DNA from: Candidatus Vampirococcus lugosii
GTDB taxonomy: Bacteria; Patescibacteriota; Gracilibacteria; Absconditabacterales; Absconditicoccaceae
NCBI RefSeq assembly: GCF_018420025.1
Contig: NZ_JAEDAM010000027.1
Span: forward strand, 1 to 15,948
Direction: 5' to 3'
DNA: 15,948 bases
Shown one piece after another: positions 1 through 15,948 of the stretch (positions are counted from its first letter, which is position 1; every line of letters begins with the position of its first letter). A program made the position numbers and the translations under genes. Below the pieces are notes generated by a model. The model saw only the letters and a list, made by a program, of their open reading frames with translations. It searched no databases and was not told the origin of the DNA.

Positions 1-1
1 T

Positions 2-442
2 AGTGATTTAACAGAAAATAAAGAAATAAATGAAAAAATATCTTGATCTTGAGATTTAAGTGAGGTTGAAAAAGAATCAGATACTTATTTTAAAGAAAGT
101 GGTGGTAGTATTTCAAGCTGAGGAAGTGATGGAGGCTGAGGAAGTGGATGATGTCTAGATCCATATATAGGAAATGATTGTAATTGTATTCCAATGGATA
201 GTGAAGTAAACTGTAGAATAGTAATGGACGATGCGGGTTTTAATCCATTATTTTATAAGGGCACAGAGGAGGGGGAACAATTGGATGATAAGCGAGATTT
301 AGCACATTGCGATCCTGACCAACGAACTTATGTGTATATTGAGCAAACTTGCTTCGGGATGTTATGTATGGTATCGACAAGGGAAGAAAATTTGGTTGAT
401 TATGATAGTGAGGATGACCGAATTGCTTGTAAGTCTGAATAG
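2..442 (+). CDS. 3' end of a gene truncated by the window edge; hypothetical protein with a Gly/Ser linker followed by a Cys-rich C-terminal domain, probably extracytoplasmic
   Basis: The frame starting at position 2 is open to the TAG at 440-442 once TGA is read as sense; there are 5 in-frame TGA in the first 64 codons. Translation ends ...KESGGSISSGGSDGGGGSGGCLDPYIGNDCNCIPMDSEVNCRIV...TCFGMLCMVSTREENLVDYDSEDDRIACKSE, with 8 Cys in the last ~95 residues. Track ORF 194..442 is only its TGA-free tail. Confidence 0.75.
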
Positions 443-608
443 AATATTTACTTTTTTTAATATTTAGGATTAGTGATTAACTTGACCATATAGTGAATTT
501 GGTAGCTAATATATTATAATTAACTCATCAAATATTAGATAAAAACTGGCTTATTATCAATAATAAAAAGTGTTATGACTAGTATTTATTAATTTTAGCT
601 TTTTGTAC

Positions 609-658
609 TACTTTTCCCGCCCGGGCGAGAAAAGTAAAAATAAAAGTTTTATTTTTTT
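609..658 (+). terminator. GC-cored stem-loop followed at a distance by a T-run; possible transcript end or stabiliser for the upstream gene, but not a textbook intrinsic terminator
   Basis: TACTTTTC (609-616) pairs with GAAAAGTA (629-636), enclosing the perfect palindrome CGCCCGGGCG (618-627). A T-run GTTTTATTTTTTT lies at 646-658. The immediate flanks are T-rich on the left and A-rich on the right, the reverse of a canonical terminator. The stem lies 167 nt after the stop at 442. Confidence 0.4.
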
Positions 659-684
659 GACATACTATAAATTATATTTATACT
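657..684 (+). promoter_or_regulatory. sigma70-like promoter candidate for the 735..10507 block
   Basis: TTGACA at 657-662, a 16-nt spacer, then TATACT at 679-684, about 50 nt upstream of the ATG at 735. The exact -35 hexamer is uncommon in this G/C-poor DNA, whereas -10-like hexamers are frequent by chance. Confidence 0.4.
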
Positions 685-734
685 ATATTTTATATAATAA
701 AATTTATATTTTTATATAAATAAAATAAAAAATA

Positions 735-1733
735 ATGTGAATTGATACTTTAAGTGTTTGAACAAATGATGATTTAGATAATATACAAGATATTATACAA
801 TGAATGGATGAAAATAATGAGAATAAAACTCAAGTTAGAGAAAAATTTGAAAAATTAAAAGCAGAACTTGAACAAGATTGAATAAGTTTGGAAGATAAAG
901 AAAAAGCTTATGAAGAATTTAAAGAAGCTTTGGATAGTATTGAAGATGAAAAAATAAAAGAAATATTAAATATTATTAATTGAATTCAATCTGAATTAGA
1001 TAATTTGCAAACTAAAATTGATCAAAATGATTGACAAGTAGGAAATTTAGAATCTGAAAAAGAAAATACACGAAGGCTTGTAAATGAAAGTTTTATAGAA
1101 AATTGAACTTTTGAAAAAATAGAAGATATTGATTTTATGGATGATCCAGGTAAATTTTTTGAAAATGTTATGAATAGATTTGTTAATTCACTTATTTCTT
1201 CTATTGATTCTATGGCAAGTTTTTCTTTTTTTGATAAAAATTTTGAAATATTCTCAAATGATGTAAAGATGGATAAAATATCAAAGTTTTTTGAAAAAAA
1301 AGATTATATAAATAAATCTGATATAGATAATTTTTCAAATATTTTGAATTCATTGAGTGAATATACTTTTTTTTGAGATTGAAATTTATTACAAAATTTG
1401 GATAATTTGGATTTAAATAGTTTGGATTGAATTGATGATAATCAAGTAAATAGAGAATTGTTTTCTAAATTATTAATTTTTATAAAAGAAAATTTGGAAT
1501 ATATAAATAAACAATACCCAGAAAATGAAAAAAAATCTGCTAAATTTGATGATATTATTAAATTTTTATTTAATAATCCTGTTGCAAATCAATTTAGAGA
1601 TTATGCAGTTCCAAGTATTTGAATAAAAATTCCTAGTAAAACTAAAATTGAACCAGAAATAAAAACAAAAAAAGAATGAAAAATAAAAGATGAAAATATA
1701 GATGATTGAGATGATTCAAGTGCTGATGATTAA
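735..1733 (+). CDS. hypothetical acidic coiled-coil protein, 332 aa, no hydrophobic segment (predicted cytoplasmic)
   Basis: ATG 735 is the first start after the in-frame TAA at 726; TAA stop at 1731-1733. The frame is open throughout with TGA as sense (checked line by line). The N-terminal third is E/K/L-rich and heptad-like (EKFEKLKAELEQDGISLEDKEKAYEEFKEALDSIEDEKIKEILN). The C-terminus is acidic (DENIDDGDDSSADD). Track fragment 1137..1376 lies inside it in the same frame. Confidence 0.85.
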
Positions 1734-1799
1734 AAATATTTATTTTACATAAATTAATTTAAGAAAATATATTTTATAAAATTTAAATAAATACAAATT

Positions 1800-3431
1800 A
1801 TGAATGAATCTTGAAATTGAACAGAAAATGAAACTCTTTTGAAACAAAAATTAGAAGAATTGAAAATTGAAGAAAAAAAAATTTTGGAAGAAATTCGTTC
1901 TTTAAAAAAAGAAAAAGATGATTTATGATGAGATCCTGTTTTGAAAGATTTTTATGATAAAAAAATTGAAAATAATATTTCTCGTTATAATAAATTAAAT
2001 ATTGTTTTTGAAAAAATTCAAAATCAATTAACAAATAATATAGATGATTTAATTAGAAATACTCAAAATGATTTGATAAATTCTCTTACAGCTTGACCTA
2101 TCAAGTTTGTTAAAAATAAAAATAAAAATACTTGATCTTTAAAAGATGAGAATTGAAATGATATTAAAAGTTTTTTATGAGAAGACATAAATTGAAAAAA
2201 TGTGGAACTTATTACTCATAATTGACAAAATTATTCTATTGTTAAAGGAAAATCTTGAAATGAATTTAGATTAGTAAATCTTGATAAATGATGTTTTATT
2301 AGTAATTGGTATGATAGTATTAGTTTTGATCATACTACATGATTGTTTATTGTTGATAATTGAACTGGAAATTCAAATAGTCTTATAACTTCAACATATT
2401 GAGTTTGAAAAAAATATATGACTATTGATTGAAAAATATTATGAGATGTAGATTCTTCCAAGATAGGATGTGATGAGTGATGAGTTTTTTATGAAGATAA
2501 ATTTAAATATTCATTGTCTAATAATAGATTTGAATCCAATGATGATTATGAAATAATAAACCCTGAATCTCAAAAGCAATGATTTTTGTTTGTGAGATCA
2601 AGTGTTTTATCATCTCAAGATAATAAAATATATGTTTTAAAATTAAAATCTTGAACTACATTTGGATGAGATAAAATATGAAATGAATTTGATGAAATAT
2701 TGTCTGATATAAAAGATTTTGGTGGAGAAAAATATGTAAAAGTTAGAGATTGAGAAAATATATCTTGGTTAAATCTTAATACTTCAGAGATGATTTGAAT
2801 AGATTTAATTGAAGTTGAACAAGTAAAGCAAATTGGTGATGATTGGATTTTTAAAGCAAAACAAGGAAATGATAAATATGTATTGATAAATTTGAAAACT
2901 TGAAAAATTATAAATTTTTTGGAAAAATGAGAATGAGATGAAATTTGAGATATAGAAGAAATTTGATGAATGAAATATATAAAAGTTAGAAATTGAGAAA
3001 AATATTTTTATATAAATTTTGATACTAAAGAAATTATATGATCTGGATTTGATGAAATATGAAAAATTATTCAAGTTAAAATAAAAAATGAAGATAAACT
3101 TATTTTTAGGTGAGAAAATTGAAATTTAGCTAATTATTATGATGCAAATACTTGAAAATCTTTGATACAAGATAAATTTTGTTGACTTATATCTTCTTGA
3201 GAATGATTAAAATCTTTATCATGAAAAATAGATAAATTAAATAATAAAGATATTATATATTTTCAAAATTGAAGAAAATATTTTGATCTTGAAACATGAG
3301 AAGTAAAAAAATCTCCAAAACAAGAAAAAGTTGAACAAGAAGTAGCAGAAAAATCTAAATCAGAATGATGGCTGAATAAGTGATGGAAAAATTTTAAGAA
3401 AAAACGAAATGAAACAAATATATTATGATAA
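1800..3431 (+). CDS. hypothetical protein, 543 aa: N-terminal coiled coil plus C-terminal array of WG/KWG-like beta-hairpin repeats; no signal peptide
   Basis: ATG 1800 is the first start after the in-frame TAA at 1788; TAA stop at 3429-3431. I hand-counted 47 in-frame TGA, 9 GGN and 5 TGG codons. The N-terminus reads LLKQKLEELKIEEKKILEEIRSLKKEKDD. The C-terminal half repeats units such as KYVKVRDGENISWLNL, NDKYVLINLKTGKII, KYIKVRNGEKYFYINFDTKEII, NYYDANTGKSLI and GRKYFDLETGEV. These resemble the WG-containing beta-repeat class, a motif-level impression only. Confidence 0.85.
2721..3310 (+). repeat. protein-level tandem beta-hairpin repeats inside the 1800..3431 CDS, with one still-visible nucleotide duplication
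   Basis: 2730..2759 (aaatatgtaaaagttagagattgagaaaat, KYVKVRDGEN) is repeated at 2973..3002 (aaatatataaaagttagaaattgagaaaaa, KYIKVRNGEK). 'x-T-G-K/E-x-I/V' turn motifs recur across the span. Confidence 0.6.
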
Positions 3432-3462
3432 TTTTATATATTATATAAATATTAAAAATAAA

Positions 3463-5262
3463 ATGAGTATAGATAATCCTAATAATCTAGATAGAAATAA
3501 TTCAGTGGATAAACTTAATGATAATCCTGAAATTTTAGATATTTCTCTTGAATCTTTGGATACAGAGATTTTGGTTTGAAGATTGACAAATATTATGCAA
3601 TGATGAGAATATTGAGAAAAAGAAATTCAAACATATTCAAGTATTATTTGAAATAAAATTTTAAATAATCCTTCTGAATATTTAATTTTACAAAAAGAAT
3701 TTAAATCTAATAACTTACCAAAAGAATTTTTGGATAGTTTATTGTTGGAACATATTTTTGATTTTGATACAAAACAGGCAATAGTAGATATTATATCAAA
3801 AAATTGAAGTATAGAATATGGTGATATACAAGCAATTTTTGATTATTCTAGTTTGGAAGAAGATTTTGAACAAAAAAAACAAGAAATTGAAGAATTTAAA
3901 AATAAAATTCAAAATCAAATTAAAATTGGATGAGAAGAAAAAATAAATTTTGATCAAGATATATCAAGTTTATCAAGAGATATGGCAAATAAAGGTATTG
4001 ATCAAAATGCTATTACAAAATATATTGATTTGTATCAATCATTTAATTCTATTAAAAATAGAATGGGAGATGTAGAAAATAGTTTATTATTTAATATACA
4101 GGATAAAAATCCTAATTTTAATTTAAGAAATGTTGATGCTAGTTTGATAAATATTTTTGGAAATAGGCTAGGAGTGATAGAATATTTTCATGAAGTACAA
4201 GATACAAATTCTATACTTTGTGATATAGTAAATGCTAAACCATGAAACCTTTCTGAATGGAATCAAGTTTGGCAAAAAAGATGAATTCATTGATTATTAA
4301 CTGAAGCTATTTCAATGACATGACTTAATAGAAAAGATGCTCAAGGTATAGCAAGTATTGGTATGGTGGTAGGTGGTGCATATATTGCTTGGAAAATGAT
4401 TAAATGATTTTTTTGAGCAAAATGAATTGATTGAAAATTAATTTGGATGCTTAAAACTTGATGAATTGTATGATGATATTTTGTTGCAAAAAATATTGCA
4501 AGTGGTAAATCTCAAGAAGAGTTACAAAATAATAGAAGGGCTATTTTGGATTGACTTAGAAATGATACTGTAGCTAGAGAATCTATAAAACTTACTATGC
4601 AAAATATTTATTGAGATGATAAATTAAAGGAAGTATTAACTATTTCTGATGAATGAAATTTGGAATTAAAATGAATTTGGGATTGAAATACTTTATCTGA
4701 AAAATATAGAGAAAATAAATCAATAATTGCTATAATTAAAGCTGAATGATGAGAAATTGATGAAAACTGAAATATAAATGGTGATATTGAAAAAATTAAA
4801 AAAGAAGTAAATGATTTTTTAATTACTTGATTTACTATGTTATGAGTTTCATCTACTAATTTAAATGAAAAAAAAGATCAAAAAGTAAATGATATAATAA
4901 AAGAATTTGAAAAAGATAGAGATATAGAAGTTAGAAAATTTGCAATTAGAGATCGTATTGCAGATGATTTAATTTATAGATTAAAATCATTAAAATGAGA
5001 TACTTCACAAGCTCAAGATTTAATAGCAAGATTTAGAATTTTTGCTATATCAGAAAATGATTTTATTAATTTATGGTGAAAATTACATTCAAATATTACT
5101 AATAAAATATGATCTCAATGGATTGCAACTTTGATGGCATGATATTGAATGGAAAGTGTTCAAATGATGGAAGTAGTAGAAACTAAATCTAATTTAGCAT
5201 CTTGAGAAAATAATGAAAATAATGAAAATAATGAAGTTGATGAAGATAATGAAGTTTTATAA
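3463..5262 (+). CDS. hypothetical membrane protein, 599 aa: soluble N-terminal ~290 aa, two-helix Gly-rich transmembrane hairpin, soluble C-terminal domain with an acidic ENN-repeat tail
   Basis: ATG 3463 follows an A-rich leader like those of the other genes; TAA stop at 5260-5262. The frame was verified line by line. Hairpin: GIASIGMVVGGAYIAWKMIKGFFGAKGIDGKLIWMLKTGGIVGGYFVAKNI (nt 4345..4500). The C-terminal tail ENNENNENNEVDEDNEVL includes (gaaaataat)x3 at 5206..5232. An alternative in-frame ATG at 3409 would add 18 Y/I/N/K-rich residues and overlap the upstream gene. Track fragment 3982..4245 is internal. Confidence 0.85.
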
Positions 5263-5335
5263 ATTTAAATTATTTTATTAATTTAAGTTTTGTAGATAAA
5301 TTATTTTTTATTGTATTAAAAATAATTAATAAAAA

Positions 5336-8300
5336 ATGTCAAATATTGAAATTAATACTGATTCATTAGAAAATAATAATGAATCATTAGAAATTGAACA
5401 AGAACAAGATGTTTCTGAAATACTTAATGATTTTGAACTTGATGTAAGAAGGGAACTTATAGAATGAGAAACTAAATGAAATCTTGAAAGATTATGACAA
5501 GAGATAGATTCAAGATCTACTTTTGATCTTGCTTTGGAATTAATAAATGATGATAAAGAAAAAATATTAAATGAGCAAGATTCTGTTAAACTTGAATCTT
5601 TTAATATGTTTGTATGATGGAATATTATGGGTTCTATTTTTAAAAAAATTATGCAAGATAATATTGATCCATACAATGAAATCGTAGATATTGAGGAATT
5701 TAGTAAACAAATAAATTTATTAAATATTTCAAATACTCAAGATTTACAAAATTATATAAATAAAAATAATATTTCATTGACAAATAGAGAAATTCAAGTT
5801 CTTGATTTTTTGGTTCAAGATAATACAGTTTTTTCACAAGAATATAATGAAAAAAATTTTTGAAAAATATGGGATGGAATGAAAAGTGTTATGCCTGATT
5901 TTGCTTTAAAATACAATGAATGAGTTAGATCTTGATGGGATGACCTTTCTGAGCAAGAATTAAATTTTTTGGATAATATTTCTGAAAAATGATGAGATAT
6001 ATTTTCTGAAATGAAAGATGTTTGAGTTGAGTGAGTTTTTGAAAAAGATAATTGGCAAAATAAAACTTTGTCTACATGATTAGTTGCATGATGATTATTG
6101 GCTGGTGGTGCTTTAGCATTGAAATGACTTTCTAAACTTTTTGGAAATAAAAAATGATGATGAGATTGAAAAAAACTTTGATTTTTGGGTATGTTGAAAT
6201 GGTGATGAATTTTATGAGTGGGGGGCTATTTACTATATAATTGGTTCAATAAAGATTGAAAATTAAATTCTTCTGAAAATTATTGATCTTGATTTGAAAG
6301 AAATGTTAAAAGTTTTGAGCAACTTAATGAAAGTGATAGAAAAAAATATAATAAATTTTCTTTATGAGTAGATTTTTATTATAAATCTGCATATTGAGAT
6401 GATTTTTCTGATTGAATGAAAAATAATGATATGCTTTGAGAATATGAATGGGAAAATGAAAAAAATTGACTTGATTATTCATGAGTTTATCCTTATGCAC
6501 TAGACAAAAGATATAAAAATATTGATCAAATTTTGTCAGAATGAAGTTTTTTTCTAGAAACATTTAATGTTTCCAAAGAAATTTTTAAACAAAATTTATT
6601 GGGTTGGTGAGTTAATAAATTAAAAAAATATTTTGAACCATTTGCATGAATTCTTTCAAAAATAGATGGTTTTACAACAGATATATTTTTACTTCCAGAT
6701 ACTGAATTTGAAAAAAAATTTAAAAATTTTTTAGATAAAGAAGATTTTGTTGATCAAATAAGAGAAATATTTAGAAAAAATATTAAAATAATTTCCTATC
6801 TTAATAGTAGGATAGATTATTTAAAATATGAAATAATAAAACAAAACTTGTTGGAAAATGATCCAGATTTTGAAAATAAAAGTGAAACGGAAAAAGAATT
6901 TTTGATTATGGAAAAAATTGATGATGAAAAATTTATGGAAAATAAAGTAAAACCTGCTTTAGATTTATTCTTGAATTCAAAAATATTAAATGCAAATGAA
7001 ATATTGAATAATTATTGAATTTTGGATTCTTGAATAAATGAAAATTTACAAGAAAGATTGCAAGAAGTTGATGATTGGTATGAAGAAATATTGTTTGAAT
7101 GAGAAAAATGAAATTATCAAATAGATGATATTTTATCAAATTTTGAATCTTGGGATAATTTAGATGATTTAGATAAACAATATTTAAATGAATTGTCAGA
7201 AAATTTATGAGAAGATATAGATAATTTTGGAGAAAGAGAATTTTTGGAAGCATTATTTTGACCTTATTATTATTCTTTTAATTCTGAAAATATAAATTTA
7301 AGAGAATTATTACAAACTATATGATATGATGAATTTGTTTGACCTTGGAAAAAAGTTCTTGAAACTTTTTGAGAATGAAAAAATCCTACTAAAAAAGATA
7401 TTGAAAATCTTAAGCAAGTAGTAGATGATTTTTATATTTTTCAAAAGGAGATTATTATATGAGTAGATAATTTAGTAGAGATTAGAGAAGATTGAAATTT
7501 GGTAGTAAAAGCTTGATTTATTATTAAACAATTTGGTAGAGAAATTTCAAGTTTTATAGATCTTTCTTTCAAATGAGAATTTAAAGATTGATTTTTTCAA
7601 TTAAGTGCTTGAACATTACTTACTTCTATTTGGATTGCAAATAGAACACCACTTGTTAAAATTGCTTCAAAACCTATAAGTGGATTTATTTTTTCTCCAA
7701 TTAATTTAATAAAAAATCCTATTTTGAGAAAAATTCCAGCATGATTTGCTCATTATTGATTATATCCAAAAAATGATTTTGGAAAAGCAAGACTTTTATA
7801 TGATTTTGCTAGATGAAGATTGAGTTTGGAAAAATCTACTGATATTTGGAATAATATAAGATGAATAACTTGATGAAAATTGACAAAAGCTACATTTTTG
7901 CAACAAGCTTTTTGAGATTGATTAACACCACAACAATATAATTCTATTGCTAATATTTGGGAAAATAAATATCTTAGAAAACAAATTCTATCAGATAAAC
8001 CTTCAATTTTAAGAGATTTTGTTTCATTACAAAAAATACCTGATGATATAAAAATTAATATTTCAGAAAAATTGTCAAGATCTATAAATTCTATACAAGA
8101 TTTATCTTGAAATAAAAAAATGTTTTTAAATAAATTTATTAAATATTATAATGGTGATTTAGATTCTTTAAATAATATATTAAGAAATATAAATACTATT
8201 TGATTTGATAATTTAGATAATAATCAAATAAATAAATTTGCAAAATCTATTGCTAGATCTTCCAAATGATTGAGTAGTACTCAAATTAATGAAATTATTA

Positions 8301-10507
8301 ATAGTATAATTAATGAAATTAATAATTGAAATAAAATAAATTTTAATTCTTATATTAGAACTTATAGATCATCTTTTTTAAATTCTCCAACACTTATAAA
8401 ATCTGTATCTCCAGAATTATCAAGTTCTAAATTATCTAGAGTTAAATCTCCATTAGTTGGAACTTTAACTCCAGAAGAATTAAAAGATCTTGAACTTAAA
8501 GTAGAAAAAATTAAATCTTGAAATATTGAATTTAAACAAAAATTAATACAGGCAAAAAATAATCCAAGTTTATCATTAGATGAAAAAAGATTATTACAAA
8601 ATCAAATTGATTCTATAGATGATTTAATAAATAATACAACCGTTCAATCATTAAGAGAAATAAAACAAAATCCTTCAATTTTGAGAACAGTGGATTGAGT
8701 ATATGATTGACTGCATGAAAGCACAAAAGTTTTTTCTAGAACAGTTTCCAAAATGAAAGATATTATAAAATCAAGACCTCGTATTACAGCATGATGAGTT
8801 TTGACAGTATTAGATGTTGTTTTGATAACTTATTTTCATAATGTATGAATGGATTCTGCTAAAGAAATGGAGGCTATAAATCCTGATTTATCAATTGAAC
8901 TTGAAAAAACACAAAATTTATCAACTACAGTTTCTGCTTTAACATCTGCATGAGCATTATGAGCAGCAGTTTTTATTCCTTGAGTATGATGGGCTATAGG
9001 TGCAACTACTTTAATATCAATAGCATGATGGGGTTTACATGAGATTAGTATATGACAATATAGTAATACTGTAGATTTTTATAACAGAAATTTTGAAAAT
9101 TATATAGGTATGTCTAGTGCTAAAATTAAGCAATCAATAATATCAGCAGTTTCATGAATAGAATGAATAAATCCTAGTTTATGATTTAATGTTGCTGATA
9201 TGATAAAAGATGAAAAATATTTTGAAGAAAAATGAGAAGCAACTCTAAATGATGCCATAAAAGCTCTGATACATCAAGAAGAAATTTATAATTATACAGA
9301 TGCTTTTATTTGATTTGATTGGAATCTTGATAATCCAAATGAAGAAAAAATAAGGCTTTGGGATAAAGAACCAAGACATGCAAGAAAACTTACACAAGAA
9401 GAAAGAGAATATGTTAGACAAAGAAGAGAAGAATTTTATTCTATAGTAAATAAAAGATTTGAATATATAAAAAATAATAATTTATTGGCAGATTTATCTA
9501 AAAATATTGAATATAATAATTGAATATGATATATAGAAGAAATATTAACAATGTCTAGATATGTATCTAATGAAAATGAAGATGAAGTAAAAATTAATGA
9601 ATTGAAAGAAAATTGAAATTATGAAGTTTTAAATAAAATATTTATCAATAATGATAAGTTAAATGTTGAATTACTTTGTGAAACATATATTAAAGTAATA
9701 AAATGATATAATTTATGATTATTTTCTGACTATGAAGAGAATTTGGAATATTTTATTGAATATTATAATTATAAATCCAAAAATATTCATCCTTGAATAT
9801 TAAATTCAATAATTTCTAGGTATGAATCTAATATAAATGTTGATAATATTGATTTTGGAAGATTATCAAACTTTTTGGAAAATTTAAATTTTGATAAAAT
9901 ATCTAATTGGGATGAAATTCCAGAAGAAGAAATATCTTTATCAGAAAAATATTGAATATCTAATAAAGTATGACAAAATGTTTTATATTTTATAGCAAGA
10001 GATGTTTATTCATATATATGAGAAAACGATTTAGATAGTCTTAAATTATTTTTTTCTAGTGATAATAGAAAAAATTATTGAATATATTGGTCTTGAAATG
10101 CTTGGTTAGTTTATCAAAGTGGTTTTAGATTTAATAATTTAGTTCTTCAATATCCTTACGAAGATAATAATCAAGATCCTTATAGTTATGCATTTAATGA
10201 AGCTGAGTCTATAAATCCAGATTATTGAGAATGATTTTTGGAAAAATTATATGAAGCTTTTGATAATACTAATTTTATAAATCCTGATCATAATTCGGGT
10301 AGAGATAATATAAATGAAGAAAAAAAAGATAAAATATTAACTATTATAAATGAAGAAAGAGATCTAATTAATTGAAAAGATGATATTGAACAAGAGATAA
10401 ATAATTTTGTTAAAAGTAATTCTTGATCATGAAAAATACAAATACCTAGTGATTTAATTATTAAATGACTTAGAGTAGGTATTGATATTAATTCTTGGTA
10501 TTGATAA
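5336..10507 (+). CDS. giant hypothetical polytopic membrane protein, 1723 aa
   Basis: ATG 5336 follows the in-frame TAA at 5330; TAA stop at 10505-10507. Every line from 5341 to 10441 was checked and has no in-frame TAA or TAG. Hydrophobic clusters: (1) nt ~6071..6247, STGLVAGGLLAGGALALKGLSKLFGNKKGGGDGKKLGFLGMLKWGGILGVGGYLLYNWF. (2) nt ~7590..7720, FFQLSAGTLLTSIWIANRTPLVKIASKPISGFIFSPINLI. (3) nt ~8780..9045, ITAGGVLTVLDVVLITYFHNV ... TTVSALTSAGALGAAVFIPGVGWAIGATTLISIAGWGLHEI. Long N/K/E/D/I-rich soluble stretches lie between them. Track fragment 5627..5863 is internal. Confidence 0.88.
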
Positions 10508-10558
10508 ATAATTTTTTTATAAATTTAATAATTTTTTATTATTTTTGTTAATTATTAC

Positions 10559-10586
10559 TTGAAATTTAAAAAAAGAATATTACAAT
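10559..10586 (+). promoter_or_regulatory. sigma70-like internal promoter candidate for the 10654..15198 exoprotein block
   Basis: TTGAAA at 10559-10564, a 16-nt spacer, then TACAAT at 10581-10586. It sits in the longest internal intergenic gap (146 nt), about 68 nt upstream of the ATG at 10654. Confidence 0.35.
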
Positions 10587-10627
10587 ATAACTATGCTAGT
10601 TATATGCAATATAATTAGTATTATATT
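10585..10627. promoter_or_regulatory. two adjacent short palindromes just downstream of the -10 candidate; operator-like
   Basis: IR1 is ATATAACTA-tgc-TAGTTATAT (10585..10605; 9-bp arms, 3-nt spacer). IR2 is AATATAAT-tagt-ATTATATT (10608..10627; 8-bp arms, 4-nt spacer). AT-only palindromes can arise by chance in this composition. Confidence 0.3.
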
Positions 10628-10653
10628 TATTTATTAATGTGACTAATATTATT

Positions 10654-11949
10654 ATGTCTAATATCAAATATTTGATAATACCTTTATTTTTTTTGATACC
10701 TATTGTTACATATTGAACACAAGATATGAGAGAAGAGTGCTATAATGATCTTACTAATTATATGTCAAAAGTAGAGCAATTTAAACCTGCATATGAAATG
10801 ATTCAAGATTTATGATATGATAAATTATCAGAGTCTTTTTCAAAAAAGTATGAAAATATGTCGTCTTTTGGTGTAGATTTGAATAAACCTATTTTATCTA
10901 TGAGATTACATTCTTTTGGTGAACAAACATCTTATCAGCATCCACCATATTCTCCATTTCCGATTTATGAGTGAACTGAAAAATGGGAAAATCCTGTTAA
11001 AGAGTTTATAATTGCTGAAGAATTTGTTACTAATCCTGAAGATTGACAAGAATATTTTATTGGTTGTTCTTTTATGAATATTCAATCTCCTGATTTAATG
11101 AGTGTTGATGCAGATAATTATTGGTATGATTGAGAAATATTATCTGTATTGGTAGAAGATAAGTCCAAAAATAATAAAGTTTGGCATAATACAAATAGAT
11201 CTTTTAATTATGAAAATGAAATATTAGCAGATTTTGATAGATTGTTTGTTTTTCCAAAATTAACTCAAAATGATTTTTTTAGTAAATATGATATAATTGA
11301 TGCATTCCCTACTAACAAAATAGATTTGAAGAAATATTTGAATGTAATAAATCCATCTGGTGATGAAGAATTACTTTTTACAGTAGTTTATGATCAAAAT
11401 TGAAATGTTATTTGATGAAGTTCTTTAGATGTTTTTAAAGGTATTTTTGATGAATCAAATAATGAAGGTTTTCCGCTTTTTGATATGTATCAAGAAATAG
11501 AAAATTTGTATCCAGAGTTTGCAAAATATTTAGCAATAAATTGATTTGTTAGTTTTGATGTTTTTAAAGAGTTAATGAATTTAAAATGAGATCATAGTTA
11601 TGCAGATTTATGGAGTTTTATATCAAGAAGTAAAGATTTAATAAAATATGCAAATCAAATTCGTAAATGAGAAGAGCCTGACATATCTAATGATACAATA
11701 TTGGTAGAATTTTATGATGAAATGTTGAAAAATATTGACTCTTTTGATAAAGATGCAAGAGAAAGAATATGATTAGAGCCATTAGAAATTAGTAATAGTG
11801 AATTAAATGAGAAAAACATAAAAAACATAAAAAATACAGAAAATGATGATTGAGATTGATTTAATTATTATATTATAATTGCAATCTTAGGATTTGTCTT
11901 TTTTATAATATTTTTGTTTATAATATTGGGTTCCAAAAATAAAAAATAA
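10654..11949 (+). CDS. hypothetical exported protein, 431 aa, with an N-terminal signal sequence and a C-terminal transmembrane anchor (type I topology)
   Basis: ATG 10654 (a GTG at 10639 is a possible alternative); TAA stop at 11947-11949. The frame was verified line by line. N-terminus: MSNIKYLIIPLFFLIPIVTYGTQD. C-terminus: GFNYYIIIAILGFVFFIIFLFIILGSKNKK, a hydrophobic helix followed by a basic stop-transfer tail. There is a small tandem (aaaaacata)x2 at 11812..11835 (KNIKNIKN). Track fragment 11149..11403 is internal. Confidence 0.85.
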
Positions 11950-11974
11950 ATTTATATATTAAAATAATAAAAAA

Positions 11975-13024
11975 ATGAAATTTAATAAAATACTTTTACT
12001 TTTATGTCTTATTTTAGTTGGTGTTTGATTTTCTTATGCAAAAATGCTTGATATAAATCAAGAAGAAGCTGAAAAACATGATTTATATAAAAATAAAAAA
12101 CTTACTGATTATCATATAGATCGGTGTAAATCATGAAATTCAAGTCTTTTAGGTAGTACATCTTGAAGTACATTTGTAACACTTGTATCATGTGTAGCAC
12201 AATGACATATTTCAGGTGCAACATTTAAATGACCTTATGAAATTGATTGAGTAGATCGTTCTGGTGAAAGGCGATGTAATTCTACAGATCCTAATTATAT
12301 TTGAAAGTGTGGGCATTGAGTTTCTCAAAATTTACCAGAAACTTATTCTGCTGAGGTGTTGTATAATATTCCATGAAATAAAATAGCAATTAAATGATTT
12401 AAAAATACTTGATCTCCTAATGTAGGTGGTACTTATAATACTCCGTTTTTGTATCTTGAAAATCAACCTGAGTGAAAAATAGATATTACTATTAACTCAA
12501 AAAGAGATAATTATTCATCACAAAGACCAGATTTTAATATAGAAAATTGATGGTCTGTATTAAATGATAATTGAAATATGTTTGTGGAATTAAAAAAAGT
12601 TGATTATTTATTCTATTTGTTAGATTTTGAAAGAATAGAACTTACTAGAAATGGTAAAAATTTTGATAGTAAAGATGAGTTAACTAATTATTTAATCAAT
12701 TCAGATTTTTTTCAAAAATTATGATTTGATGAAGAACAAAAAGAAAATTCTTTAGATTATATTTTGCCTACAATACAAGATTCTCCAAACTATTATCTTA
12801 CAGTACTGACAAAAGAATCTATACAAAATATTGTAAATTATGAATTTAGTGAAGAACCTGAAAAATTAATAAGAAGATATTTTGCTATATATCCTACATT
12901 AAATCCAGTAAAAACAAGTTGATGATTACAGTTTCCAGAAATTATAGAATATGATAATGAATATATTATCAAGGATTTTGGTGAAATATATCTAAAAAAT
13001 GGTATGTTACCTATTTGGAAATAA
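11975..13024 (+). CDS. hypothetical secreted protein, 349 aa, signal peptide plus 4 mature cysteines
   Basis: ATG 11975 follows the in-frame TAA at 11960; TAA stop at 13022-13024. I hand-counted 17 in-frame TGA, 10 GGN and 2 TGG codons. Signal peptide: MKFNKILLLLCLILVGVGFSYA|KM. Mature Cys occur in DRCKSG, VSCVAQ, RRCNST and GKCGHG. The frame was verified line by line. Confidence 0.85.
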
Positions 13025-13053
13025 AAATTTAATTATATAAATAAAATAAAAAA

Positions 13054-15198
13054 ATGAAATTTAATAAAATACTTATGTGTAATATTGTTTTTGTAACAAG
13101 TTTAGGTATTAGTTTTGCAAGTTGACCTGATGAAGAAATTGAAGAGTCTGTAACATTGCAATGAGTAAAATTTGATGTATTGCATCATAAATATGAAGAA
13201 AGTGAGTTAACTCATCAAATGAAATGTGATGAATATTGAGAAGATTATGATTTTTTGAAGCTTACTGTTAATGGAACTTCAAGTATGATAAGTTGTGATA
13301 TAGATTGATCAAAATTGGTTCCACCAGATTGATTAGATCCAGATCCAGATCCAGATCCAACAGGTCCAGATCCAGAACCAGATCCAACAGGTCCAGATCC
13401 AGATCCAACAGGTCCAATTAGTATAACACAAACTACACAAACAGAATATGATTGTGCTACTTATACTAAATGATATCATGAAAAATGGTGAAATTGTAAA
13501 GTTAAATGAGATTGGACAGAAGATTGAAAAATTAAATGTGTACAAGAATCAGATTATGAATGACTTACAGCACCTTGTGGTCAAATGGAAGTTACAATAA
13601 CTAAATATTTTGATTGAAATTGAGATTTAATTGGTACTGATAGAAATGAAGGGGATTGTACATGATGTCCATGAGATAAGAAAAAACCTAAGTCAAAAGA
13701 AAATGATGTTATAATAAAATTAGTTCATGATAAATTTGAATGTATTTGATCTAGTTTTGCAAATAATTCTGATAAATGTTGATCAAAATTTAAGATTGAT
13801 CTTTCATGATTAAAAGATCCATGACTTGTAGATATAGAATGACTTGCATGAATAGGTATTACTAATATTAAAAATGAAACAAAAGAGCCTGCAGATATTA
13901 AATCTGCATATGATCCAGATGATAATAGTGCACTTAATTTTAGTGATGTTATTGATACTCAAATACGAGGTAGTTCTACCAATTTTGGGTTTAGAATATC
14001 AGATATTAAAGCTATATCACCATTTAAAACAACTAATTGAAAAATATCTTTTGATATTGAGAATGTTGATGTACCTTGAAAAACTAATGTAACATTAGAT
14101 AATATAAATTATTCTTTTAATAAACCATTTACTGGTAGTTTGTCAATAGATCCAAATTGAATTAGAGTTTGACAAGCTCAAGAATTAACTTTACATTATG
14201 CAACATGAACAGATATTTTAGATTTTGGAGATGATGAAGAAATAGAATATTTTGGTAATACATTAAAAGTTAATTGAACTTGATATGCATTAGTTACTAC
14301 TTGATTTGATTCAAGAGATACTGATCTTGAAATGGTTGTTAATTATGACTGATGAAATATAGATTGAGATCCACGATTAACTACAGATCCTTATATATTT
14401 TATACTGTAGATTGAAAAGATGTTAGATATCGTTTATCTGATGGTAATGAACCAAATGATCGTAGAGTTACTTATATACCTACAAATACAAGTTATTTGA
14501 ATATAAAAATTATATGACAATCTCAAACAGTATGAAGACAAGATGTAACTGGTCAAGCACAGAATTTTTCTTCTATGTCTACTTCTAATTTTAGAAATTC
14601 TTTTAGAAGAAAAGTTTTGGAATATACTAGATGATGGGAATATGATGATAATAAAGATTGAGTTTTATATCTTGATTGAGAAGGTGATACAATAGAATAT
14701 TCTAGTATATCTGATACTTTTGAGACACTTATTATTCGTAATTGAAATCTTCTTATAGATGAAGATATTAATCATATGAAATGAATTGTTGTTATTAGAG
14801 ATGATGTGAGAGAAGATACTTTATGAAATATATTTGTTAATCAAGATGTTCAAGAAATTAATGCATATATTTATTGAGATTGATGATTAATTAGTTTTGA
14901 TAAGGATGAAAATGATTCATATAATAATTATTCTGATTCTTTTAAAAGACGTGAGAATTTAGAAAATCAATTAGTTTTGGAATGAAGGTTGTATACTAGG
15001 AATACAGTATGATGAGCAATTTGAGCTTGAAAATATATGTTGCCAGGTGCTAAAGAAACTACAGATTATCATAGAGCTTTGATGTATGATTTAAATCAAT
15101 TTAGATCTTGAAGATGATCTAGTCCAGTAGATTCTAATTATACTGAGGCATTTATTATAAAATATCATACTTGACAATCTCCAAAATTATTTGAATAA
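13054..15198 (+). CDS. hypothetical secreted, adhesin-like protein, 714 aa: signal peptide, DP/TGP-repeat linker, Cys-rich module, then a long beta-rich region
   Basis: ATG 13054 follows the in-frame TAA at 13042; TAA stop at 15196-15198. The frame was verified line by line. Signal peptide: MKFNKILMCNIVFVTSLGISFA|SG. Linker: DPDPDPDPTGPDPEPDPTGPDPDPTGP. Eight Cys lie between nt ~13450 and 13790 (EYDC, GNCK, IKCV, APCG, GDCTGCPG, FECI, DKCG). The remainder is rich in T/S/N/D/G/Y alternation. C-terminal motif: NQLVLEGRLYTRNTVGGAIGAGKYMLPG...YDLNQFR. Confidence 0.88.
13336..13416 (+). repeat. in-frame imperfect tandem repeat encoding a Asp-Pro / Thr-Gly-Pro linker
   Basis: The unit gatccagatccaacaggtcca (DPDPTGP) occurs at 13348..13368 and 13396..13416. 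A 27-nt variant with an extra gaacca lies at 13369..13395, and extra gatcca copies lie at 13336..13347. The antisense translation of this repeat is the WIWIW track ORF 13333..13545. Confidence 0.9.
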
Positions 15199-15257
15199 AT
15201 CGTTTTTTTTAGATTAGAAATAATTAATTATAATTATAATAGAAATTGTCTGTTACT

Positions 15258-15307
15258 AAAATCAAGAAATTTAAGTAATTATATTTTACTTAATTTCTTG
15301 ATTTTTT
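15258..15307 (+). terminator. rho-independent terminator of the cluster
   Basis: ATCAAGAAATTTAAGTAA (15261-15278) pairs with TTACTTAATTTCTTGAT (15286-15302), giving 17 bp with one bulged T and a 7-nt loop TTATATT. A T5 run follows at 15303-15307. It lies 60 nt after the stop at 15198. A-residues at 15258-15260 could make it bidirectional. Confidence 0.6.
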
Positions 15308-15338
15308 CATAAATTTATATTTGTAGAATAAAATTTCT

Positions 15339-15363
15339 AAATCCTTGATTTATACAAGGATTT
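15339..15363. other. second short stem-loop downstream of the terminator
   Basis: AAATCCTTG (15339-15347) and CAAGGATTT (15355-15363) are perfect 9-bp arms with a 7-nt loop. No adjacent T-run is present, so the function is unclear. Confidence 0.3.
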
Positions 15364-15948
15364 GTGAGAGAATAAAAATAGATTTATGTACTACATAATA
15401 TTTTATAATCTTATTTTGAATAATTTATTTTCTATATTTTTTTGATTTTATATATATTATTATCATTAATTTGTTTTATTCAATCAATTTGTTTCAATAA
15501 ATTTTTGATAGTATTTTAAATATTCTATTTATAGATATCAATATAATTTCATTTATATATTTTTTTGTATCTTTATCTATAAAAAATTTAACAAGATAAT
15601 TAGTAAACATAAGTTTTTTAACTATATTTGCGAGTACTTTTTTTTAATAAACATATTATGATTCTTAGCACTTAAAATAATAAAAGATAAAAAATATATT
15701 ATTTCAAGAGAAAATACAATAATAATCGCCACTACAAAATAAAATATTTTTTGTTTACAAAGATGAGATAATAGATAATATTATGTTTTGAAGAGTTAAT
15801 ATTTAGAAGTTTATAAATATTCTAAATTATTAATTAATATTTTATTTGATTTGTCAATATATAAATACATAAAAATATAAATATATGATAACTATACTTA
15901 ATCATAAAAAAACATAAAATCGTTGAATTTTTACTTAAAATAAGTATA

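What the first reader, a model, noticed from the sequence alone, without database searches (positions are those of the whole stretch)
1..15948. TGA is a sense codon here, best read as glycine (translation table 25), so the standard-code ORF track misses every real gene
Seen directly:
- With TGA as stop, the longest ORF is 116 aa and lies antisense.
- With TGA as sense, one partial and seven complete + strand ORFs of 332-1723 codons appear. Together they occupy about 97% of 735..15198.
- The 1723-codon frame 5336..10507 has no TAA or TAG, in DNA that is roughly three-quarters A+T.

Gly versus Trp:
- Hand counts give 47 TGA, 5 TGG and 9 GGN in the 543-codon gene.
- Hand counts give 17 TGA, 2 TGG and 10 GGN in the 349-codon gene.
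- TGA=Trp would imply about 9.6% and 5.4% Trp, which is implausible.
- TGA=Gly gives about 10.3% and 7.7% Gly, which is normal.

Context agrees with Gly:
- A linker SSGGSDGGGGSGG mixes GGN and TGA codons (nt ~110-150).
- Beta-turn motifs T-G-K and T-G-E recur.
- GG pairs occur in transmembrane helices.
- Signal-peptide ends read VGVGFSYA and SFASG.

Established knowledge: TGA->Gly is the code of Gracilibacteria and Absconditabacteria (SR1). TGA is also the majority glycine codon here, as expected under strong AT pressure.
Basis: partly seen in the sequence, partly recalled or inferred. Interest (0 to 1): 0.7.

Follow-up and report, generated by a model that had tools for sequence, protein, structure and literature searches.

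The report
Known UGA-to-glycine code in Vampirococcus

Summary
The observation and the interpretation are both correct, and both are already published.

**ORFs.** With TGA as a stop, the longest ORF is 116 aa and lies antisense. With TGA as sense, one partial and seven complete + strand genes appear (332-1723 codons). They cover 97.7% of 735..15198. All end in TAA (7) or TAG (1).

**Identity.** With TGA read as Gly, all eight proteins are residue-for-residue identical to NCBI proteins of Candidatus Vampirococcus lugosii (Absconditibacteriota/SR1). The record contig length of 15,948 nt equals the window. The genome paper (PMC8080830) states UGA=Gly and used Prodigal table 25.

**Independent test of Gly versus Trp.** The last gene (13054-15198) has 400 homologues. 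I aligned 11 homologous DNA loci from Gracilibacteria and Absconditabacteria genomes, with TGA masked in every row.
- Window TGA columns hold TGA (33%) or GGN (11%) in the homologues, and never TGG (0 of 496 cells).
- Window TGG columns hold TGG (42%), and never TGA or GGN.
- Across all 20 amino acids, Gly is enriched 8.8-fold, the next best (Pro) 2-fold, and Trp is at 0.

**Composition.** TGA=Trp would give 6.7% Trp. Without TGA, Gly would be only 1.9%.

**Not testable here.** The window holds no tRNA gene, so tRNA-Gly(UCA) and loss of RF2 in this genome could not be checked.

**Side observations.** Most database homologues are mistranslated with Trp. TGA is avoided after TTT.

The parts
2..442 (+). 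3' end of a gene cut by the contig start (146 codons, 5 TGA, stop TAG). Contains the Gly/Ser linker at nt 113-151, which mixes GGN and TGA codons.
   Evidence: The TGA=Gly translation is exactly NCBI MBS8121967.1, 'hypothetical protein, partial [Candidatus Vampirococcus lugosii]'.
735..1733 (+). Gene of 332 codons (13 TGA, 0 TGG, 2 GGN; stop TAA). Coiled-coil-like, acidic, no known family.
   Evidence: Exact match to MBS8121968.1. A second copy from Logan assemblies carries Trp at all 13 TGA positions.
1800..3431 (+). Gene of 543 codons (47 TGA, 5 TGG, 9 GGN; stop TAA, and the last sense codon is TGA). Repeated beta-strand/turn units of the form ...N-x-E-K-Y-F-Y-I-N-F-D-T-x-K-I-I...
   Evidence: Exact match to MBS8121973.1. 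By eye, in the repeats a GGN codon (KQ-G-ND) sits in the same position as TGA in four other units (RD-x-E, RN-x-E, EN-x-N, QN-x-R). This is weak supporting evidence only.
3409..5262 (+). Gene of 617 codons (35 TGA, 7 TGG, 12 GGN; stop TAA). Overlaps the previous gene by 23 nt. Has a hydrophobic Gly-rich segment.
   Evidence: Exact match to MBS8121974.1, which confirms the ATG at 3409 as the annotated start.
5336..10507 (+). Gene of 1723 codons (98 TGA, 22 TGG, 23 GGN; stop TAA, and the last sense codon is TGA). A giant protein with hydrophobic, Gly-rich segments that read as membrane-spanning (by eye; no topology prediction run); no relatives were found.
   Evidence: 100% identity and 100% coverage to a V. 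lugosii hypothetical protein (P0001). Listed as VAMP_54_69, 1723 aa, among the ten largest proteins in Supplementary Table 1 of PMC8080830. No relatives in metagenome contigs.
10654..11949 (+). Gene of 431 codons (14 TGA, 4 TGG, 8 GGN; stop TAA). Has an N-terminal signal or anchor and a C-terminal hydrophobic helix.
   Evidence: Exact match to MBS8121969.1. The Logan copy carries Trp at the TGA positions.
11975..13024 (+). Gene of 349 codons (17 TGA, 2 TGG, 10 GGN; stop TAA). Secreted protein with signal peptide MKFNKILLLLCLILVGVxFSYA.
   Evidence: Exact match to MBS8121970.1.
13054..15198 (+). Gene of 714 codons (51 TGA, 3 TGG, 18 GGN; stop TAA). Secreted protein with a Pro/Asp linker, tandem Ig-like beta-sandwich domains and a conserved C-terminal domain. 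This is the gene used for the Gly-versus-Trp test.
   Evidence: Exact match to a V. lugosii protein (P0002). 400 homologues by HMMER. Codon-level and protein-level column tests. AlphaFold2 model with mean pLDDT 77.9. Weak Foldseek hits (TM-score 0.13-0.15) to adhesins FdeC and InvE.
15010..15015 (+). Example: two adjacent TGA codons (residues 653-654 of the last gene, motif R-N-T-V-x-x-A). In 11 homologous loci these columns hold 7 TGA + 4 GGN, and 11 TGA, with no other codon.
   Evidence: per-column table; alignment view.
15199..15948 (.). Non-coding 3' end of the contig. 14.3% G+C, no ORF above 76 codons under either reading of TGA.

Best explanation
The window is a complete 15,948-nt contig of the published genome of Candidatus Vampirococcus lugosii (Absconditibacteriota/SR1). 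This lineage uses translation table 25, in which UGA is an extra glycine codon and only UAA and UAG terminate.

Shown here:
- TGA is read through in eight real genes.
- TGA occupies glycine positions.
- TGA is the majority glycine codon in this window (75%).

Inferred from published work on the clade (my recollection of Campbell et al. 2013, which I could not read here), not shown for this genome:
- UGA is decoded by a tRNA-Gly with anticodon UCA.
- Release factor 2 has been lost.

Inferred from the sequence: in a 23% G+C genome the single-step change GGA->TGA is synonymous under this code, so A+T mutation pressure drives glycine codons towards TGA.
For: ORF structure.

Identity to V. lugosii records, with contig length 15,948. 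Taxonomy.

The genome paper states UGA=Gly and used Prodigal table 25.

Codon-level test with TGA masked:
- Window TGA columns: homologues hold 33.3% TGA, 10.9% GGN and 0/496 TGG.
- Window GGN columns: 21.2% TGA, 8.0% GGN, 0 TGG.
- Window TGG columns: 41.9% TGG, 0 TGA, 0 GGN.
- Fisher p values run from 5e-26 to 9e-6.

After removing the columns used as search patterns, GGN is 9.3% against a 1.4% background (p = 4e-19). Gly is enriched 8.8-fold, Pro 2.0-fold, Trp 0. In 21 of the 51 TGA columns the homologues show both TGA and GGN.

Protein-level test:
- In homologues translated with table 4, every G must be GGN. G is 13.1% at window TGA columns, against 1.2% background and 11.3% at window GGN columns.
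- In homologues with normal Trp content, W (certainly TGG) is 0.2% at TGA columns, against 27% at TGG columns.

Composition: 6.7% Trp if TGA=Trp; Gly 1.9% without TGA and 7.7% with it.

Clade-level support:
- A Gracilibacteria relative carries a tRNA with anticodon UCA, G1-C72, C2-G71, G3-C70, U73 and an encoded CCA (L011 5305-5380).
- Proteomics in a BD1-5 bacterium found 40 Gly peptides against 1 Trp peptide (PMC4032931).
Against: Nothing in the window argues against it. The limits are these.
- The decisive column test rests on one of the eight genes. For the rest, the two further genes searched singly gave nothing (g4; g2 in viral contigs only), and the pooled search of the remaining six was uninformative.
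- For the other seven genes only composition, local context and the match to the deposited annotation apply.
- The window holds no tRNA gene and no release-factor gene, so the decoding machinery of this genome was not seen.
- There is no protein-level (mass spectrometry) evidence for this organism.
- Low-level alternative decoding or context-dependent termination at UGA cannot be excluded from sequence alone.
Confidence: 0.97

Rival explanations
1. TGA encodes tryptophan (translation table 4), as in Mycoplasma/Spiroplasma and several insect endosymbionts. These also have very A+T-rich genomes.
For: - TGA is clearly a sense codon and G+C is 22.7%.
- Public databases hold Trp translations of these same genes.
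- 107 of 149 family representatives are Trp-translated.
Against: - Window TGA columns never align to TGG in homologous DNA (0 of 496 cells), whereas window TGG columns do (13 of 31).
- TGA=Trp would give 6.7% Trp overall and 9.6% in one gene, and would leave Gly at 1.9%.
- The Trp translations are products of gene callers that fall back on table 4, not evidence: they differ from the NCBI proteins at every TGA position (all 13 differences in one gene; 14 of 17 in the other, the remaining three being ordinary substitutions).
- The organism belongs to SR1, not to a table-4 lineage.
Confidence: 0.01
2. TGA is a normal stop, and the long TGA-containing frames are not genes. On this view the region is non-coding, decayed, or a compositional accident.
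For: No Pfam, NCBIfam or PHROG family matches any of the eight products. Two of the three searched singly have no detectable relatives; the pooled search of the other six was uninformative.
Against: - A 1724-codon frame free of TAA/TAG, against a maximum of 233 in 200 shuffles.
- 0 TAA/TAG in frame, against 324 and 427 in the other two frames.
- The last gene has 400 homologues, with conservation running straight across TGA positions.
- An AlphaFold2 model of the read-through product is confident: pLDDT is above 90 for 266 residues.
Confidence: 0.005
3. TGA encodes some other residue (Cys, Sec, Ser, Ala...), or is decoded ambiguously or in a context-dependent way. For example, it might be mostly Gly but sometimes a terminator.
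For: - Ser (1.35-fold) and Pro (1.97-fold) are mildly enriched at TGA columns.
- Proteomics in a BD1-5 relative found single peptides for Trp, Ala, Lys and Asp at UGA.
- Two genes end in TGA-TAA.
Against: - Gly enrichment is 8.8-fold, against at most 2-fold for any other residue. Cys is depleted (0.43-fold).
- 280 selenocysteine codons in 4855 is not credible, and Rfam found no SECIS element or any other RNA family.
- Terminal TGA is not enriched: 5 of 99 long ORFs in the window and related loci, against an overall TGA frequency of 4.8%.
Confidence: 0.015

Closest known systems
[quoted passage not shown] Described for human oral SR1 by Campbell et al. 2013 (cited in PMC8080830 as ref. 19; not readable here) and stated for Vampirococcus lugosii by Moreira et al. 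2021 (PMC8080830).
   Same: The same organism, the same contig and the same reassignment. UAA and UAG remain the only stops. TGA exchanges with GGN in homologues.
   Different: Nothing differs in kind. In this contig TGA is the majority glycine codon: 75% here, against 17-87% in the eleven related loci examined.
Gracilibacteria (BD1-5) UGA=Gly, validated by proteomics (Hanke et al. 2014, PMC4032931).
   Same: The same reassignment in the sister lineage. Homologues of the last gene of the window occur in Gracilibacteria genomes, with TGA in the same columns. One of those loci carries a tRNA with anticodon UCA and glycine acceptor-stem identity elements.
   Different: A different phylum-level lineage. 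There is no proteomic evidence for Vampirococcus itself.
Translation table 4 (Mycoplasma/Spiroplasma, some endosymbionts, many mitochondria): UGA=Trp.
   Same: UGA is a sense codon in an A+T-rich, reduced genome. Gene callers that choose only between tables 11 and 4 pick table 4 for these genomes.
   Different: UGA columns here never align with TGG, and the implied Trp content would be 6.7%.

Membership tests
Translation table 25 (SR1/Gracilibacteria code) | UGA occurs in frame inside real genes, and UAA/UAG are the only terminators. | tested here: met
   280 in-frame TGA in eight genes. Stops are TAA x7 and TAG x1. The frames are far longer than any shuffle. Homologues are conserved across TGA positions.
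Translation table 25 (SR1/Gracilibacteria code) | UGA positions correspond to glycine (GGN) in homologues. | tested here: met
   GGN is 10.9% at TGA columns against 1.4% background. It is 9.3% after removing the pattern columns. Gly is enriched 8.8-fold, the highest of the 20 amino acids. Tested on one gene of eight.
Translation table 25 (SR1/Gracilibacteria code) | UGA positions do not correspond to tryptophan. This distinguishes table 25 from table 4. | tested here: met
   0 of 496 cells are TGG at TGA columns. 13 of 31 cells are TGG at TGG columns.
Translation table 25 (SR1/Gracilibacteria code) | The organism belongs to Absconditabacteria or Gracilibacteria. | tested here: met
   All eight products are identical to NCBI proteins of Candidatus Vampirococcus lugosii, on a contig of 15,948 nt. 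The lineage is Candidatus Absconditibacteriota.
Translation table 25 (SR1/Gracilibacteria code) | The same genome encodes a tRNA-Gly with anticodon UCA. | not testable with these tools
   There is no tRNA in the window. The rest of the V. lugosii assembly could not be fetched. A tRNA(UCA) with G1-C72, C2-G71, G3-C70 and U73 was seen only in a Gracilibacteria relative (L011 5305-5380).
Translation table 25 (SR1/Gracilibacteria code) | Release factor 2 (prfB) is absent from the genome. | not testable with these tools
   Only this contig was available. The supplementary files of PMC8080830 that are held do not mention release factors.
Translation table 25 (SR1/Gracilibacteria code) | Peptide evidence for Gly at UGA in this organism. 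| not testable with these tools
   None exists in the papers read. Proteomic evidence exists only for a BD1-5 relative.
Translation table 4 (UGA=Trp) | UGA aligns with TGG/Trp in homologues, and gives a plausible Trp content. | tested here: not met
   0 of 496 cells. Trp would be 6.7% overall and 9.6% in the 543-codon gene.

The most novel reading that the evidence does not exclude
The reassigned codon is not context-free. In this contig, glycine after Phe-TTT is written GGN 14 times and TGA only 6 times, against 84:276 overall (odds 0.11, p = 6e-6).

UUU-UGA is a perfect +1 slippery site: the P-site tRNA-Phe can re-pair on U-UUU-GA. The bias could therefore mean that UGA is decoded slowly enough by tRNA-Gly(UCA) to make frameshifting a selectable cost. 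That would be a residual 'price' of the reassignment.

Ten A+T-rich related loci show only a weak trend in the same direction (Mantel-Haenszel odds ratio 0.67, p = 0.055). The sample here is 20 codon pairs. The pattern was also picked out after looking at many contexts.
Probability: 0.15. Interest if true: 0.45.

Novelty: already known. Interest (0 to 1): 0.08.

Why it matters
**As a discovery, it does not matter.** UGA=Gly is the published code of this exact organism and of its phylum, and the NCBI record is already translated that way.

**As a check on the scan, it is a good result.** A reader with no tools correctly recognised a recoded genome from raw sequence. It also chose Gly over Trp for the right reasons.

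**There is one practical point.** Public protein collections mix Gly and Trp translations of the same genes from these lineages. 107 of 149 representatives of one family, and the Logan copies of two genes of this window, carry Trp at TGA positions. Alignments, profiles and structure predictions built from them are corrupted at about 7% of positions, unless the code is fixed first.

Tried and rejected
1. **Word-indexed protein searches.** The 1723-aa and 714-aa proteins each found only themselves. A third search used the other six proteins joined into one query. It returned nothing, not even the self-matches. That search was wasted and says nothing about those genes.
2. The job ran once the NCBI protein id was available.
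3. **Known-family searches.** Pfam, NCBIfam, PHROGs, Rfam, ARAGORN and a phage DNA search on the window gave no significant match. The 332-aa protein has only sub-threshold coiled-coil similarity to SMC-like models.
4. **Scans for relatives.** The 543-aa protein found nothing in viral contigs. The 1723-aa protein found nothing in metagenome contigs.
5. **DNA for the closest homologue.** The look-up of encoding contigs on the closest homologue, P0003, found no record. A 40-sequence alignment was too diverse for the search for related loci. A 6-sequence alignment worked.
6. **Paralogues within the window.** I looked for paralogues to use as an internal test. Only low-complexity similarity turned up.
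7. **Relic of an ancestral TGA stop.** Two genes end in TGA-TAA, which suggested this idea. I rejected it: terminal TGA is 5 of 99 ORFs, against a 4.8% expectation.
8. **Ascertainment bias.** The loci were found with patterns that back-translate G as GGN. This inflates GGN at residues 352-361 and 602-610, for example residue 610 (10 of 11 GGN). I excluded those columns and repeated the test.
9. **Promoter and terminator scan.** Counts equal the shuffle expectation.
10. **Campbell et al. 2013 (PMC3619370)** is not held in the library.

Full report
**1. The observation**

Under the standard bacterial code the window has only six ORFs of 80 aa or more. The longest is 116 aa, at 5326..5676 on the - strand. 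With TGA treated as sense, the + strand resolves into these frames:
- a 3' gene fragment at 2-442;
- seven complete genes at 735-1733, 1800-3431, 3409-5262, 5336-10507, 10654-11949, 11975-13024 and 13054-15198.

The complete genes cover 97.7% of 735..15198. The 1723-codon frame has no TAA or TAG, in DNA of 22.7% G+C.

This is far beyond chance. In 200 dinucleotide-preserving shuffles, the longest frame free of TAA/TAG averaged 135 codons, with a maximum of 233. The observed value is 1724. Within the seven complete genes, the coding frame holds 0 TAA/TAG and 275 TGA. The two other frames hold 324 and 427 TAA/TAG. Seven genes stop at TAA and one at TAG.

**2. What the DNA is**

I translated the 1723-codon gene with TGA=Gly. 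The product is 100% identical over 100% of its length to an NCBI 'hypothetical protein [Candidatus Vampirococcus lugosii]'. Its only contig is 15,948 nt long, the length of the window. The same holds for the 714-codon gene.

The other six Gly translations are found by exact look-up as MBS8121967-MBS8121970, MBS8121973 and MBS8121974 of the same organism, including the partial first gene. The window is therefore a complete contig of the published V. lugosii assembly. My gene boundaries equal the deposited ones.

V. lugosii is placed in Candidatus Absconditibacteriota (SR1). The genome paper (Moreira et al. 2021, PMC8080830) says two things:
- genes were called with Prodigal table 25.

The 1723-aa protein is VAMP_54_69 in that paper's table of the ten largest proteins.

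**3. An independent test of Gly against Trp**

Agreement with an annotation is not evidence for the code, so I tested the code directly. Seven of the eight genes gave no homologues to work with: of the three searched singly, two found nothing, and the pooled search of the other six was uninformative (section 6). The last gene (13054-15198) has 400 homologues by exhaustive HMMER search, 61 of them at E < 1e-30.

*Two classes of homologue.* These database proteins fall into two classes.
- 107 of 149 have on average 7.1% Trp and 2.6% Gly. They are table-4 translations of recoded genomes, so every G in them must come from GGN.
- 34 have 0.6% Trp and 9.3% Gly. Every W in them must come from TGG.

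*Protein-level result.* I aligned them with the window protein, masking its TGA positions as X.

| Window column class | G in first class (certainly GGN) | W in second class (certainly TGG) |
|---|---|---|
| TGA (51 columns) | 13.1% | 0.2% |
| GGN | 11.3% | 0.7% |
| TGG | 9.6% | 27% |
| Background | 1.2% | 0.4% |

*Codon-level result.* I fetched DNA for 11 distinct homologous loci from Gracilibacteria and Absconditabacteria genomes. I aligned the read-through ORFs with TGA masked in every row, then mapped the codons back.

| Window column class | Cells | Homologue TGA | Homologue GGN | Homologue TGG |
|---|---|---|---|---|
| TGA | 496 | 33.3% | 10.9% | 0% |
| GGN | 137 | 21.2% | 8.0% | 0% |
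| TGG | 31 | 0% | 0% | 41.9% |
| Other | 6105 | 4.3% | 1.4% | 0.5% |

Fisher tests of these contrasts give p values between 5e-26 and 9e-6.

*A bias and its correction.* One bias had to be removed. The loci were found with peptide patterns in which G is back-translated as GGN, which forces GGN at residues 352-361 and 602-610. Without those columns, GGN is still 9.3% at TGA columns (p = 4e-19). Over all 20 amino acids the enrichment at TGA columns is Gly 8.8-fold, Pro 2.0-fold, Ser 1.35-fold, Cys 0.43-fold and Trp 0.

In 21 of the 51 TGA columns the homologues show both TGA and GGN. One example is the conserved R-N-T-V-G-G-A motif at 15010-15015. There the homologues hold 7 TGA + 4 GGN and 11 TGA, and nothing else.

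TGA therefore behaves exactly like a GGN codon and not at all like TGG.

**4. Composition and context**

Across 4855 codons there are 280 TGA, 43 TGG and 94 GGN.
- TGA=Trp would give 6.7% Trp, and 9.6% in the 543-codon gene.
- Without TGA, Gly would be 1.9%.
- With TGA, Gly is 7.7%.

The residues most often preceding TGA are Asp, Asn and Ser (D-x, N-x, S-x). The commonest triplets are NxN, SxN and DxK. These fit glycine in turns. The Gly/Ser linker at nt 113-151 mixes GGN and TGA codons.

**5. Mechanism**

*Shown here:* UGA is read through, and it stands at glycine positions.

*Inferred from published work on the clade:* decoding is by a tRNA-Gly with anticodon UCA, together with loss of RF2. 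This rests on my recollection of Campbell et al. 2013, which is cited but was not readable.

*Not seen for V. lugosii:* the window has no tRNA or other known RNA gene. I could not fetch the rest of the assembly.

*Clade-level support:*
- One related locus, from a dolphin-mouth Gracilibacteria genome, carries a tRNA next to tRNA-Lys at L011 5305-5380. It has anticodon UCA, G1-C72, C2-G71, G3-C70, discriminator U73 and an encoded CCA.
- To my knowledge these are the bacterial glycine acceptor-stem identity elements. ARAGORN labels it 'SeC' only because of the anticodon.
- Proteomics on a BD1-5 bacterium found 40 peptides with Gly at UGA, against one with Trp, at the highest stringency (PMC4032931).

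*Inferred from the sequence:* GGA->TGA is a single synonymous step under this code. A+T pressure therefore explains why TGA has become the majority glycine codon here.

**6. Rivals**

- **Table 4 (Trp)** is refuted by section 3.
- **'Not genes'** is refuted by the frame statistics and by the conserved homologues. It is also refuted by a confident AlphaFold2 model of the read-through product: mean pLDDT is 77.9, and 266 residues are above 90.
- **Other residues or selenocysteine** are excluded by the 20-way enrichment test and by the sheer number of TGA codons.
- **Ambiguous or context-dependent decoding** cannot be excluded from sequence. Two genes end in TGA-TAA, but terminal TGA is not enriched over 99 long ORFs (5.1% against 4.8%).
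- **A phage or mobile element with its own code.** No phage DNA, viral-contig relative or PHROG match was found.

One limit on the 'no detectable relatives' statement: the pooled search for six of the genes failed even to find the self-matches. Absence of relatives for those six is therefore untested.

**7. What the genes are**

None of the eight products matches a Pfam, NCBIfam or PHROG family. At least two carry N-terminal signal peptides, two have C-terminal or internal hydrophobic segments, and one is a 1723-aa giant.

The last gene belongs to a family of at least 400 sequence clusters. The only named genomes I recovered for it are Gracilibacteria, Absconditabacteria and one 'Patescibacteria group' genome. 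It has no Pfam domain and no relative of solved structure by sequence.

Its model shows a disordered N-terminal 120 residues that include a Pro/Asp linker. After that come tandem beta-sandwich domains and a well-predicted C-terminal domain. Foldseek hits are to the Ig-like domains of adhesins (FdeC, InvE), S-layer proteins and cell-adhesion molecules, all at low TM-scores.

This fits the 'complex cell surface' that the genome paper describes. The neighbouring genes are not conserved next to the homologues in the 11 loci.

**8. Verdict**

The finding is real and correctly interpreted, but it is already known for this exact organism and contig. Interest is low.

Two by-products may be worth a note:
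- Trp mistranslations of code-25 proteins are widespread in public collections.
- TGA is avoided after TTT in this contig: 6 TGA against 14 GGN, compared with 276:84 overall (p = 6e-6). Related loci show only a weak echo of this (odds ratio 0.67, p = 0.055).

Noticed in passing
window 735-1733 and 10654-11949; protein ids P0153, P0157; family representatives P0003-P0151: Public protein collections hold Trp (table 4) translations of code-25 genes. The Logan copies of two window genes carry Trp at every TGA position: 13 of 13 differences in one gene and 14 of 17 in the other. In addition, 107 of 149 representatives of the last gene's family are Trp-rich (7.1% W, 2.6% G). Profiles built from them are wrong at about 7% of positions.
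   Followed up: yes
window, all eight genes (codon pairs TTT-TGA versus TTT-GGN): After Phe-TTT, glycine is written GGN 14 times and TGA 6 times, against 84:276 overall (odds 0.11, p = 6e-6). UUU-UGA would be a perfect +1 slippery site if UGA is decoded slowly. Ten A+T-rich related loci show only a weak trend (Mantel-Haenszel odds ratio 0.67, p = 0.055). The comparison was post hoc and the sample is small.
   Followed up: partly
window, all genes (adjacent glycine codons): In the seven complete genes a TGA is followed by another TGA 19 times and never by GGN (p = 0.01); two TGA-GGN pairs appear only when the partial first gene is included. Gly-Gly pairs thus tend to reuse the same codon class.
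   Followed up: no
L011 5305-5380 (+), Gracilibacteria genome DOLJORAL78_24_7, contig PDTW01000018.1: A tRNA with anticodon UCA lies directly after tRNA-Lys(UUU). It has G1-C72, C2-G71, G3-C70, U73 and an encoded CCA (Rfam tRNA score 45.9 bits). ARAGORN calls it tRNA-SeC. By its acceptor stem it is the UGA-decoding tRNA-Gly of a relative, about 2.8 kb upstream of that genome's homologue of the window's last gene.
   Followed up: partly
window 13054-15198; loci L001-L012: The last gene belongs to an uncharacterised family of at least 400 clusters. It has no Pfam domain and no relative of solved structure by sequence. It was recovered only from Gracilibacteria, Absconditabacteria and Patescibacteria genomes. 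The AlphaFold2 model (pLDDT 77.9) shows tandem Ig-like beta-sandwiches resembling the adhesins FdeC and InvE. It also has a highly conserved C-terminal domain (motifs NGN, YADGG, LFTRNTIGGA, YDLNYxRR) whose fold was not identified.
   Followed up: partly
window 5336-10507: The 1723-aa protein (VAMP_54_69 in the genome paper's list of the ten largest proteins) has no detectable relative. A word-indexed search of 5.8 billion proteins and a scan of metagenome contigs both found nothing. It appears to be a true orphan giant; its hydrophobic, Gly-rich segments read as membrane-spanning by eye (no topology prediction was run).
   Followed up: partly
window 3429-3431 / 3426-3428 and 10505-10507 / 10502-10504: Two genes end with TGA immediately before the TAA stop. 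I tested whether this is a relic of an ancestral TGA stop. Terminal TGA is not enriched over 99 long ORFs of the window and related loci (5.1% against 4.8%), so it is chance.
   Followed up: yes
window 13335-13416: An imperfect tandem repeat (period 27, 2.6 copies, 95% matches) encodes a Pro/Asp/Thr/Gly linker, DPDPDPDPTGPDPEPDPTGPDPDPTGP. It lies between the signal peptide region and the folded part of the last gene. The Gly codons in it are GGN, not TGA.
   Followed up: no
window 15199-15948, 10508-10653, 443-734: The intergenic stretches are extremely A+T-rich: 14.3%, 10.3% and 18.2% G+C. The last 750 nt of the contig have no ORF above 76 codons under either code. The best sigma-70-like match (TTGACA-16-TATACT) lies at 657-684, upstream of the second gene. 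However, promoter-like matches overall equal the shuffle expectation.
   Followed up: partly
window 1-15000: There is a strong and uniform excess of G over C on the coding strand. GC skew is between +0.17 and +0.43 in 14 of 15 1-kb windows; the exception is 8001-9000, at +0.05. All genes lie on one strand.
   Followed up: no
window 3409-3431: The third and fourth genes overlap by 23 nt in different frames. The deposited annotation uses the same ATG at 3409.
   Followed up: partly
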